Positions 19,310 to 22,300 of a stretch of 64,000 nt of DNA are shown here, piece by piece. The stretch is taken from NCBI RefSeq assembly GCF_013167455.1, contig NZ_CP038328.1; one strand, written 5' to 3'. This DNA is from Escherichia coli O157:H7. GTDB lineage: Bacteria > Pseudomonadota > Gammaproteobacteria > Enterobacterales > Enterobacteriaceae. Position numbers: made by a program. How positions within the stretch are numbered: position 1 is the stretch's first letter; each line of letters starts with the position of its first letter.

Positions 19310-22300
19310 AGTCGTGCACCGACGCCTGATGCGACGCGGGCGCGTCATATCACGCCAAAACCGTAGGCCGCCTCCGCCATGTTAAATGTTAACTGGCATT
19401 GGCAATTTACTCTTCCCGGCCTTTACTCATACTTTTTTGGTCTTCATCCGGATAGTGTTTTTTTAGATATTCCAGGACGTTTTTATTGACCTTGTGTTGC
19501 GTATACACCCACCCTTTCCAGTAATCAGGCTGGTCCAGGTAAACTTCTGGCGGAATGGTGAAATCAGAAAGCGTTAACCATTCGGCTAACAGATCGGGGT
19601 TTCGTTTCTGTATCAACTGCAACAGCATAATCAGCGACATGGCAGAGGCAGGAGCCGTACTATCGCCGCTTAAATACTTCCACACTGTCGACCGGTTCGA
19701 ACGAAAAAGGATCGGTAGCAATGCCCGGTCCAGATTCATTTCATTAAAAATCTTCTCAAATTCATTCATTTAAATTTTCCTGCCTGGCGTAAACCTCTTA
19801 AAAATTGAGATTTATCAAAGAAACGCATTTTAGCACACATCAGGAACCGCTTCACGTTTAGTCCAGAAACAGAATTTATTTCGCTTATCAAAACAAGTCT
19901 TTACTCTTTTTTACATTGAAAGAGCACGAAATGATTTCCTTTTTTATTTATATAAGAAACCATTTTTGTTTCTTATTGATGGTGTTTACGCTTACAACAG
20001 ACAAAAATGCGCTTTACATCACACAAATGGCGGCGTAGATTTCGATTAAATTGCAACGCAGTTTATTTCTTAAAACAATATTATTTGTTTCTTATAGAAA
20101 CATTAGTACGACTTATTTTGAACAAGAGAAAATGAATGAAAACTGTAAACGTAGCTTTACTGGCACTCATAATTTCAGCAACATCCAGCCCTGTTGTTTT
20201 AGCTGGTGATACCATTGAAGCGGCGGCAACAGAGCTTTCAGCCATTAACTCTGGCATGTCGCAATCGGAGATTGAGCAGAAGATTACCCGCTTTTTAGAA
20301 CGCACAGACAACAGCCCCGCTGCGTATACCTATTTGACTGAACATCACTACATCCCTTCTGAAACACCTGATACCACTCAGACTCCCACTGTCCAGACAG
20401 ATCCTGACGCAGGACAAAAAACCGTTGCCGCTACAGGTGATGTACAGACAACTGCCCGTTATCAGAGCATGATCAACGCCCGACAGTCTGCGGTAACTGA
20501 CGCCCAGCAAACGCAAATTACAGAGCAACAGGCGCAGATCGTAGCCACACAAAAAACGCTCGCCGCGACTGGAGATACGCAAAATACCGCGCATTATCAG
20601 GAAATGATTAATGCCAGACTGGCGGCTCAAAATGAGGCTAATCAGCGCACCGCCACTGAACAAGGGCAGAAAATGAATGCGCTGACAACCGATGTGGCAG
20701 TACAACAGCAAAATGAAAGGACTCAATACGATAAACAAATGCAAAGTCTGGCGCAGGAGTCTGCCCAGGCACATGAACAAATTGACAGCCTGTCACAAGA
20801 CGTAACCCAAACGCACCAACAGTTAACCAACACCCAAAAACGGGTTGCAGATAACAGCCAGCAAATTAACACGCTCAATAACCATTTCAGTTCGCTAAAA
20901 AACGAAGTTGATGACAATCGTAAAGAAGCCAATGCGGGAACTGCATCTGCCATCGCTATCGCCTCACAACCACAGGTTAAAACCGGTGACGTGATGATGG
21001 TGTCAGCGGGAGCGGGAACCTTCAACGGTGAATCTGCGGTGTCTGTCGGAACATCATTTAATGCCGGAACGCATACGGTACTTAAAGCCGGTATTTCTGC
21101 GGATACACAATCTGATTTCGGCGCAGGTGTCGGCGTGGGATATTCGTTCTAATATTTCAATCCTCAATATAAATAAGAGCAAGGAAGCTTGCCGGGTTCA
21201 CCTCTTCATTAATTTGTACATTATTTAAGGTTAACAATGATGAATAGCTCCATTAAATCGTTTTCCCTGCTGGCGGTTATATTACTGGCTGGCTGTAGTT
21301 CACCCACTTCCCGCATCGCAGATTGCCAGGCGCAGGGCGTCAGTCATGACACCTGTTACCTCGCAGAACAGCAGCGTCAGGCGGCTATTTTAAGTGCATC
21401 CGAGGCACAGGCATTTAAAAATGCAGAAGCCGCACAACACGCCCAGGCGGCAAAGAAAGCCATTTATAAAGGATTTGGCATGACCTTTAGAATGAGCAGT
21501 AAAAACTTTGCTTATCTCAATGATTCATTATGTGCAATTGATGAAGACAATAAAGATGCCACTGTTTATCAGTCAGGTCTATATAACGTCATTGTTTATC
21601 ATCACACAGGAAAAGTCGCCTTAATGAAAGAAGGCCAGTTTGTGGGTTATTTAAAATGAAGGAGCAAAGGAAAATACCCCTGACGCATATTATGATTATC
21701 GGTGCGTTTATTTTTGCCTTCTTGCAAGTAGTATTATTAGCCTCCCTGGTTCACGCTGTGAATGTTAACAACGAAATCCAGGAAGGCTTATTTCAGTCGG
21801 GGCGCATTATGGTAGAAAGTTTGCAGCATATTCTTTCGGTGCAAACGGGGATTCACTGATTTTCACCCCGCCCGATGATGACAGCAGCCGGAGAGATTTT
21901 CGATAATCGGGCAGTCGGCGCTGTCATCACCGGGGCAGGCATTCGCCAGCGCCAGTAGCTGGTTGCGCATAGATTGCAGTTCTTCGATATGCCGTTCAAT
22001 CTCCGCCACCTTCTCCAGCGTGCGACGTTTGACGTCGGCACTGTGACGCTGCGGGTCGTTAAACAGATTCACCAGCTCGCCGCTCTCTTCCAGGTTAAAG
22101 CCCACCTGGCGCGCCTGGCGCAGTAAGGTCAATTCGTTGAGATGCTGCTGCGTGTAGGTTCGATAACCATTTTCGCTGCGCATCGGCGGCGTCACCAGCC
22201 CCTTCTCTTCATAGAAGCGAATGGCTTTGCTGGTCAGGCCGGTAATTTTTGCTACATCGCTAATGTTCATCGTTCGCGCAACGCCTCCTGTGCTTTGTTA

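What the first reader, a model, noticed from the sequence alone, without database searches (positions are those of the whole stretch)
19380..21862. Four-gene insertion between ybbJ and cueR: YadA-anchor adhesin-like protein, lipoprotein, small membrane protein and a divergent hypothetical
In K-12, as I recall, ybbJ and cueR are adjacent and convergent. Here ~2.5 kb separates them, bounded by a REP cluster and carrying four ORFs with no core-gene identity. The 338-aa protein has a signal peptide, a repeat-containing coiled-coil stalk and a C-terminus closely matching YadA-type membrane anchors, but no obvious head domain. The lipoprotein and 67-aa membrane protein are translationally coupled downstream. 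Together with the adjacent T1SS island, cueR is bracketed by two surface-adhesin modules. This compact module is not a system I recognise as characterised.
Basis: partly seen in the sequence, partly recalled or inferred. Interest (0 to 1): 0.7.

Follow-up and report, generated by a model that had tools for sequence, protein, structure and literature searches.

The report
Known O-island 29: short autotransporter cassette
The 2.6-kb insert between ybbJ and cueR is the already described E. coli O157:H7 island OI-29, and its main gene, published as the DNA-binding motility activator "GmrA", has the sequence of a secreted outer-membrane trimeric autotransporter, so the published mechanism needs re-testing.

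Summary
Four intact ORFs lie between ybbJ and cueR. K-12 has zero bases there.

Yang et al. (2018) published the same gene as "GmrA", a cytoplasmic activator that binds the fliA promoter. Their primers map exactly onto this ORF. The sequence does not fit that role:
- It has a Sec signal peptide and a Q/T/A-rich coiled coil.
- It has a full YadA anchor (Pfam E 2.6e-11) ending in Phe.
- No DNA-binding domain was found.

Their tagged constructs would block export or barrel insertion.

New here:

Adhesin function is unproven: deleting OI-29 did not change HeLa or Caco-2 adherence.

The parts
19229..19380 (.). REP/BIME cluster at the ybbJ edge of the island
   Evidence: Rfam naRNA4 (REP-derived) scores 74.7 bits at 19279-19356, with a weaker copy at 19189-19255. 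This stretch matches tens of places in every E. coli genome. It is absent from the K-12 junction.
19407..19769 (-). z0640: 120-aa protein, divergent from the autotransporter gene; probable Xre/Cro-type helix-turn-helix regulator
19770..20135 (.). 366-bp AT-rich divergent control region with a conserved promoter-like site and AGAAAC/GTTTCT repeats (candidate operators)
   Evidence: G+C is 31%. A TTTACA-17-TAGATT site lies at 20013-20041, inside the motif GCTTTACATCACA that recurs in most related loci. The hexamer AGAAAC/GTTTCT occurs 6 times against 0.3 expected, at conserved positions in other loci. A palindrome GTTTCT-TAT-AGAAAC lies at 20087-20101. Function is inferred, not tested.
20136..21152 (+). 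z0639 = ECs0548 = 'gmrA': 338-aa short, headless trimeric-autotransporter (type Vc) protein
   Evidence: The primers of PMC5826968 map exactly to its flanks and start codon. RefSeq names it 'YadA family autotransporter adhesin'. It has a hydrophobic N-terminus with VLA|GD, no proline from residue 91 to 278, 18% Gln, and a constant heptad register over about residues 197-266. Two 38-aa repeats lie at about residues 93-131 and 139-176.
20136..20204 (+). Predicted Sec signal peptide (residues 1-23, MKTVNVALLALIISATSSPVVLA | GD)
   Evidence: Read from the sequence: Lys2, a hydrophobic core with Kyte-Doolittle mean 2.10 over residues 8-22, and A-x-A-type V-L-A before Gly24. An equivalent N-terminus is present in all five aligned relatives. 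No signal-peptide predictor was available.
20970..21149 (+). YadA-type membrane anchor (residues 279-338) ending in Tyr-Ser-Phe
   Evidence: Pfam PF03895 E 2.6e-11, model positions 1-60 of 60. It aligns to the solved anchors of AtaA (1.3e-7), Hia (5.7e-6) and YadA (0.0078). All five relatives end in Phe or Trp.
21237..21659 (+). z0638: 140-aa lipoprotein (lipobox LLAG|C20, Ser at +2) with a Cys-containing helical N-part and a C-terminal 8-stranded beta-barrel
21656..21859 (+). Unnamed 67-aa single-pass membrane protein, start overlapping the lipoprotein stop (ATGA)
   Evidence: It has a KEQRK N-terminus and a TM segment at residues 14-32 with Kyte-Doolittle mean 2.65. It is annotated in RefSeq but not among the three OI-29 genes (z0638-z0640) listed by Yang et al. 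from the EDL933 record. It is conserved with the same 4-nt overlap in E. whittamii and Pseudocitrobacter, and absent in Enterobacter, Yersinia and Lelliottia loci.

Best explanation
The insert is O-island 29, a small horizontally acquired cassette built around a short trimeric autotransporter.

- The precursor is exported through Sec by its N-terminal signal peptide.
- Three 4-stranded C-terminal anchors are assembled by BAM into one 12-stranded outer-membrane barrel.
- About 255 residues of Gln/Thr/Ala-rich coiled-coil stalk, capped by a conserved N-terminal region of about 55 residues, are displayed on the cell surface.

The sequence features are shown here. Localisation and trimerisation are inferred from the family.

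For: Identity and context:
- The window is 100% identical to O157:H7 genomes, and 1400 of 5426 genomes hold the island.
- The K-12 junction is empty.
- The insert has low G+C.

Autotransporter features:
- Full-length YadA_anchor, E 2.6e-11.
- Alignment to solved AtaA, Hia and YadA anchors.
- Terminal Phe, a hydrophobic cleavable-looking N-terminus, no other hydrophobic segment, and a proline-free stretch from residue 91 to 278 with a fixed heptad register next to the anchor.
- All passenger homologues carry only PF03895, and sources name them adhesin or YadA-like.

Published constructs (PMC5826968):
- The His-tag precedes the signal peptide.
- The 3xFLAG follows the terminal Phe.
- z0638, gmrA and z0640 are co-expressed in DMEM, and all are switched off on HeLa-attached cells.

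Module conservation:
- The lipoprotein lies directly downstream of a YadA_anchor gene in Pseudocitrobacter, E. whittamii, UBA5654, Yersinia aleksiciae, Rahnella, Enterobacter species and Lelliottia.
- In Pantoea it lies 1.9 kb downstream.
- The same pairing occurs on the IncFIB plasmid pENTE01.

Against: - Yang et al. report a specific EMSA shift and 7.75-fold ChIP enrichment at the fliA promoter. Complementation worked with gmrA alone, and the motility defect was seen in eight strains. I cannot show that these results are artefacts.
- No localisation, trimerisation or adhesion data exist for this protein. Deleting OI-29 did not change HeLa or Caco-2 adherence.
- The lipoprotein family also occurs without any autotransporter in Klebsiella grimontii, Raoultella, Erwinia, E. 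soli and Phytobacter. Deleting z0638 gave no motility phenotype. A helper role is therefore only an inference from gene linkage.
- The signal peptide was judged by eye and hydropathy, not by a trained predictor.
Confidence: 0.7

Rival explanations
1. [not shown]
For: PMC5826968 reports the following:
- An EMSA with competition, negative on flhDC and rpoS fragments.
- ChIP-qPCR enrichment of 7.75-fold.
- Epistasis with fliA.
- Complementation by gmrA alone.
- Increased motility when gmrA is expressed in K-12.
- The same phenotype after deleting orthologues in eight strains.
Against: - The protein has a signal peptide and a full OMP anchor ending in Phe.
- It has no recognised DNA-binding domain. 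Only sub-threshold coiled-coil matches appear, such as TMF_DNA_bd at E 0.16 and SMC at 22 bits.
- The EMSA protein carried a tag in front of the signal peptide. The ChIP protein carried 3xFLAG after the terminal Phe. Both would keep the protein out of its normal compartment.
- From established knowledge of the flagellar cascade, fliA has a sigma-28-dependent promoter. Lower fliA, fliC and motA with unchanged flhDC, epistatic to fliA, is also what a defect in FlgM export or basal-body completion gives.
Confidence: 0.1
2. [not shown]
For: This would reconcile the sequence features with the EMSA and ChIP data. Long Gln-rich coiled coils can bind nucleic acids with low specificity; that statement is my inference, not a test.
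Against: I have no evidence for an internal start or for cytoplasmic retention. No basic DNA-binding segment is evident, and the passenger is acidic or neutral and Gln/Thr-rich. This mechanism has no precedent known to me among trimeric autotransporters.
Confidence: 0.08
3. The O157 allele is a decaying remnant. It would be a longer autotransporter that lost stalk repeats and any head, is no longer functional, and is carried along with unrelated small genes.
For: Other alleles at the same locus are longer: 436 aa in strain C325, 415 aa in E. whittamii, and 376-385 aa elsewhere. The O157 allele lacks about 100 stalk residues relative to C325. OI-29 has no adherence phenotype.
Against: - The ORF is intact. 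The 338-aa form is a cluster of over a thousand member sequences at 95% identity or more.
- The length differences are in-frame repeat changes.
- The gene is transcribed at RPKM 96 and is regulated.
- Its deletion has a phenotype.
- None of the longer relatives has a Pfam head either, so headlessness is the family state, not decay.
Confidence: 0.05

Closest known systems
Trimeric autotransporter adhesins, type Vc secretion (YadA, Hia, AtaA)
   Same: It has an N-terminal signal peptide. A coiled-coil stalk runs straight into a 4-strand YadA_anchor that ends in an aromatic residue. The anchor aligns to the solved AtaA, Hia and YadA anchors.
   Different: It is very short, at 338 aa. It has no YadA-head, stalk, Trp-ring, GIN or neck domain detectable by Pfam in it or its relatives. 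Instead it has a family-specific N-terminal region of about 55 residues and two 38-aa repeats. No adhesion phenotype has been shown.
Saa, the STEC autoagglutinating adhesin (source of the Sakai annotation 'Saa-like protein' for ECs0548)
   Same: Both are E. coli YadA-anchor proteins of variable length with repeat-containing stalks. ECs0548 is listed under that label in PMC2323221.
   Different: The relation is distant. Plasmid-borne E. coli YadA-like genes, which I presume include saa, match at only 29.5% identity over residues 162-338. The gene is chromosomal at ybbJ-cueR, not on a plasmid.
[quoted passage not shown] 2018, PMC5826968)
   Same: It is the same gene. The deletion, cloning, tagging and qPCR primers all map onto window 20136-21152.
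   Different: The published molecular role is a cytoplasmic DNA-binding activator. The sequence indicates an exported outer-membrane protein with no DNA-binding domain.
Autotransporter helper pairs SadB-SadA and TpgA-AtaA
   Different: - The gene lies downstream, not upstream.
[quoted passage not shown]
- Pfam finds no BamE or OmpA domain of the kind in TpgA.
- The 2026 survey that found only SadB and TpgA analysed only head-containing autotransporters.
MliC/PliC periplasmic lysozyme inhibitors and Neisseria ACP

Membership tests
Trimeric autotransporter (type Vc) | C-terminal YadA-type anchor domain (4 beta-strands per chain) | tested here: met
   PF03895 E 2.6e-11, covering the whole model. 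phmmer hits to the AtaA, Hia and YadA anchor structures.
Trimeric autotransporter (type Vc) | N-terminal Sec signal peptide | tested here: met
   MKTVNVALLALIISATSSPVVLA|GD, hydropathy 2.10 over residues 8-22, conserved in relatives. Judged by rule and hydropathy; no trained predictor was available.
Trimeric autotransporter (type Vc) | C-terminal aromatic residue (OMP beta-signal) | tested here: met
   The protein ends ...GVGVGYSF. All five relatives end in F or W.
Trimeric autotransporter (type Vc) | Coiled-coil stalk continuous with the anchor | tested here: met
   The heptad register is constant over about residues 197-266. Hydrophobic residues fill 62-75% of a/d positions against 18-29% overall. 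There is no proline from 91 to 278. This was a simple in-house heptad count, not a calibrated predictor.
Trimeric autotransporter (type Vc) | Homotrimer displayed on the cell surface | not testable with these tools
   This needs fractionation, heat-stable trimer detection or surface labelling. No multimer prediction was available.
Trimeric autotransporter (type Vc) | Recognised head or adhesive domain (typical of the family, not defining) | tested here: not met
   [not shown]
DNA-binding transcription factor (the published GmrA assignment) | A recognisable DNA-binding domain and cytoplasmic location | tested here: not met
   Pfam and NCBIfam give only sub-threshold coiled-coil matches: TMF_DNA_bd E 0.16, and SMC at 22 bits against a cut-off of 567. 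The signal peptide and anchor predict export. The CDD hit used in the paper could not be seen, because the figure is not held.
SadB/YajI autotransporter-assisting lipoproteins | Sequence or fold homology to SadB (trimeric coiled coil plus MATH-like beta-sandwich) | tested here: not met
   [not shown]
TpgA-type autotransporter partners | BamE/SmpA-like and OmpA-like peptidoglycan-binding domains | tested here: not met
   Pfam finds nothing beyond TraQ at E 0.3. NCBIfam gives only sub-cut-off TraV and Lpp-like N-terminal matches.
MliC/PliC lysozyme inhibitors | Homologous 8-stranded barrel with the conserved inhibitory loop motifs | tested here: inconclusive
   [not shown]
[not shown]
   [not shown]

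The most novel reading that the evidence does not exclude
OI-29 is a self-contained 'mini-autotransporter' cassette of an undescribed type, with three parts:
1. A headless trimeric autotransporter.

On this reading the published 'transcription factor GmrA' is really this surface protein. Flagellar gene expression would then respond to an outer-membrane autotransporter through the envelope or the FlgM-sigma-28 checkpoint, not through promoter binding.
Probability: 0.3. Interest if true: 0.6.

Novelty: already known. Interest (0 to 1): 0.4.

Why it matters
The locus itself adds nothing new to the O157:H7 map. It is OI-29 / S-loop 43, already annotated as a YadA-family protein and already studied.

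What matters is the mismatch between sequence and literature. A protein now cited in reviews as a DNA-binding activator of fliA has every sequence hallmark of an exported outer-membrane trimeric autotransporter. The constructs used to show DNA binding would have kept it out of its normal compartment.

If the sequence reading is right:
- An entry in the EHEC regulatory network is mis-assigned.
- The true question becomes how a surface protein raises flagellar expression.

Separately, the repeated linkage of an uncharacterised lipoprotein family with headless YadA-anchor genes is a candidate for a new autotransporter partner. It is seen across Enterobacterales and on a plasmid. The one systematic survey excluded this class by design.

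Tried and rejected
- TpgA-like partner: rejected, no BamE or OmpA domain.
- MliC homology: fold-level resemblance only. hhalign aligns just the lipobox.
- AFDB50 Foldseek with the lipoprotein model: returned only unannotated members of its own family.
- Rfam on 19100-22000: only REP-derived naRNA4.
- Promoter and terminator scan: 3 promoter-like sites against 5.0 expected, and no plus-strand terminator. It is therefore uninformative, except that one site coincides with a conserved motif.
- Remnant or pseudogene reading for the O157 allele: considered and judged unlikely.
- The CDD 'DNA-binding domain' of the paper could not be reproduced, because the figure is not held. My guess that it was a coiled-coil hit such as TMF_DNA_bd or SMC is an inference only.

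Full report
**1. What is there**

The window is E. coli O157:H7. Region 19200-21900 is 100% identical to several O157:H7 chromosomes. ybbJ ends at 19228, and cueR, on the minus strand, ends at 21863.

Between them lie, in order:
- A REP cluster at 19229-19380. Rfam naRNA4, a REP-derived family, scores 74.7 bits there. The stretch matches a median of 28 places per E. coli genome.
- A 120-aa ORF on the minus strand, 19407-19769.
- A 366-bp spacer with 31% G+C.
- A 338-aa ORF, 20136-21152.
- After an 84-nt gap, a 140-aa ORF, 21237-21659.
- A 67-aa ORF, 21656-21859, whose ATG overlaps the previous stop codon as ATGA.

In K-12 MG1655 the cueR and ybbJ stop codons are adjacent with no base between them. 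The insert has 43.3% G+C against 52.9% in the flank.

**2. It is a known island**

A full-text search for the EDL933 locus tags found Yang et al. 2018 (PMC5826968). They describe the 2,643-bp O-island 29, containing z0638, z0639 and z0640.

I mapped their primers onto the window:
- The z0639 ('gmrA') deletion arms flank exactly 20136-21152.
- The z0638 arms flank the lipoprotein gene.
- The z0640 arms flank the 120-aa gene.
- The OI-29 deletion spans 19220-21862.

The Sakai name is ECs0548. Ogura et al. 2007 listed it as 'Saa-like protein', S-loop 43, among non-fimbrial adhesion genes. It was absent from K-12, present in UTI89 and APEC, present in 8 of 8 O157 strains, and absent from O26, O111 and O103 (PMC2323221).

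RefSeq annotates 'YadA family autotransporter adhesin', 'lipoprotein' and two 'hypothetical protein' genes. At least 80% of the region is present in one place in 1400 of 5426 complete E. coli genomes.

The locus is polymorphic:
- Strain C325 has a 436-aa allele plus an extra 407-aa gene.
- Strain 400625 has only that 407-aa gene.
- E. whittamii has a 415-aa allele.

**3. What the 338-aa protein is by sequence**

- Pfam gives YadA_anchor over residues 279-338, covering the whole model, at E 2.6e-11.
- The same segment aligns with the solved anchors of AtaA (1.3e-7), Hia (5.7e-6) and YadA (0.0078).
- The chain ends in Tyr-Ser-Phe.
- The N-terminus, MKTVNVALLALIISATSSPVVLA|GD, has the form of a Sec signal peptide. 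No other hydrophobic segment exists.
- Residues 91-278 contain no proline and are 18% Gln, 15% Ala and 12% Thr.
- From about residue 197 to 266 one heptad register holds, with hydrophobic residues at 62-75% of a/d positions against 18-29% overall.
- Two 38-aa repeats lie at about residues 93-131 and 139-176. They explain the in-frame length differences between alleles.
- No head or stalk domain of Pfam is found in this protein or in four relatives of 293-633 aa.
- All passenger homologues are Escherichia proteins that carry only PF03895.

It is therefore a short, headless member of the trimeric autotransporters. Its relation to Saa-type plasmid genes is distant, at 29.5% identity over the stalk and anchor.

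**4. The conflict with the literature**

Yang et al. named this same protein GmrA. They concluded that it is a transcriptional activator that binds the fliA promoter. Their grounds were:
- a 'putative DNA-binding domain' from the NCBI CDD;
- an EMSA;
- ChIP-qPCR with 7.75-fold enrichment;
- genetics.

Later reviews repeat this conclusion. No paper in the library links GmrA with its autotransporter nature.

I find no DNA-binding domain. The only matches with 'DNA' in their names are sub-threshold coiled-coil matches: TMF_DNA_bd at E 0.16, and SMC at 22 bits against a cut-off of 567. Whether one of these was the CDD hit is my guess, because the figure is not held.

The constructs matter:
- The EMSA protein was cloned from the native ATG behind the pET28a N-terminal His-tag. 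The signal peptide was therefore internal.
- The ChIP protein had 3xFLAG fused directly after Phe338.

From established knowledge of Sec targeting and of the C-terminal beta-signal of outer-membrane proteins, both changes should prevent normal export or barrel assembly. The binding data therefore describe a mislocalised protein.

The genetic pattern was: flhDC unchanged; fliA, fliC and motA down; epistatic to fliA. From established knowledge, fliA is partly transcribed by sigma-28 itself. The same pattern would therefore follow from any envelope defect that delays FlgM export. The pattern does not discriminate between the two mechanisms.

I therefore rate the direct-activator mechanism as unlikely (0.1). 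The phenotype itself looks solid: it was complemented and was seen in eight strains.

The adhesin reading is equally unproven. Deleting OI-29 left HeLa and Caco-2 adherence unchanged. All three annotated genes are switched off on attached bacteria.

**5. The other three genes**

- It has a canonical lipobox (LLAG|C20), with Ser at +2 and +3. By the +2 rule this predicts outer-membrane sorting; this is an inference.
- It has conserved Cys30 and Cys40 and the motif DTCYLAEQ.
- The AF2 model shows helices over residues 23-64 and a confident 8-stranded barrel over 75-139.
- hhalign against E. coli MliC aligns only the lipobox.
- Pfam, NCBIfam, PDB sequence and AFDB searches give no annotated relative.

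- In eight of the 13 loci in that scan that hold a full-length lipoprotein gene, it lies directly downstream of a YadA_anchor ORF. These are in Pseudocitrobacter, E. whittamii, Enterobacteriaceae UBA5654, Yersinia aleksiciae, Rahnella rivi, Enterobacter chuandaensis, E. asburiae and Lelliottia.
- In Pantoea it lies 1.9 kb downstream.
- Two earlier look-ups show the same arrangement.
- So does the IncFIB plasmid pENTE01 of Enterobacter sp. 638, where hhalign gives probability 99.8%.
- The lipoprotein gene stands alone in Klebsiella grimontii, Raoultella, Erwinia, E. soli and one Enterobacter contig. In Phytobacter it follows a 620-aa secreted protein.
- Short proteins of about 67 aa, carrying only the N-terminal module, exist in Buttiauxella, Atlantibacter and Aeromonas.

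The linkage is far above chance for a gene class with a few copies per genome. But the loci are not phylogenetically independent, and linkage is not function.

The 2026 survey of autotransporter neighbours found only SadB and TpgA. It analysed only proteins with a YadA head domain. It would therefore have missed this class.

*The 67-aa protein.* It is a single-pass membrane protein with its N-terminus inside the cell. It is conserved with the same 4-nt overlap only in Escherichia and Pseudocitrobacter.

- It belongs to a very small family: 23 representative clusters in 1.8 billion proteins.
- It lies divergent from a YadA_anchor gene in eight other loci, some from closely related sources.
- Family members found with its profile hit MqsA-HTH (3e-5), Xre-like-HTH (7e-5), HTH_3 (3.8e-4) and HTH_26 (4.5e-4).

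It is thus the likely helix-turn-helix protein of the island.

*The shared control region.*
- It holds a promoter-like TTTACA-17-TAGATT site inside a motif that recurs in most related loci.
- It holds six AGAAAC/GTTTCT hexamers against 0.3 expected.
- It holds a palindrome, GTTTCT-TAT-AGAAAC, 35 nt upstream of the autotransporter start codon.

I propose these as operators. This is untested.

**6. Verdict**

The finding is real but already known as a locus. Its 'YadA-like' nature is already in public annotation, so as a discovery it ranks low.

Its residual interest lies in three points:
1. The sequence contradicts the published molecular mechanism of GmrA.
3. There is a conserved autotransporter-lipoprotein pairing that fits neither known helper family.

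Each point is directly testable, as set out in the next steps.

Noticed in passing
window 25605-45764 (minus strand): The giant adhesin gene of the neighbouring type I secretion island is split into a 5188-aa ORF (25605-41171) and a 1461-aa ORF (41379-45764). RefSeq flags the SiiEA/BapA-related gene of an identical O157:H7 genome as a pseudogene with an internal stop. One of the two 'adhesin modules' bracketing cueR may therefore be inactive.
   Followed up: partly
L002 4485-5708; L003 1648-2871 (other E. coli strains, same ybbJ-cueR locus): Some strains carry an additional 407-aa hypothetical gene between the 67-aa ORF and cueR. Strain 400625 has only that gene and no autotransporter cassette. 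It has no PHROG hit. The ybbJ-cueR junction is a recurrent insertion hotspot.
   Followed up: partly
window 21237-21659 versus 21656-21859: The published z0638 deletion (arms at 21198-21236 and 21660-21697) also removes the ATG of the overlapping 67-aa ORF. That ORF is not among the three OI-29 genes listed by Yang et al. The z0638 mutant was probably a double mutant.
   Followed up: yes
[not shown]
   Followed up: no
[not shown]
   Followed up: no
[not shown]
   Followed up: partly
L021 3069-3278 (Pantoea conspicua): Downstream of the Pantoea lipoprotein homologue, with the same 4-nt overlap, lies an unrelated 69-aa ORF with a C-terminal TM segment instead of the Escherichia-type 67-aa protein.
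   Followed up: no
[not shown]
   Followed up: no
[not shown]
   Followed up: partly
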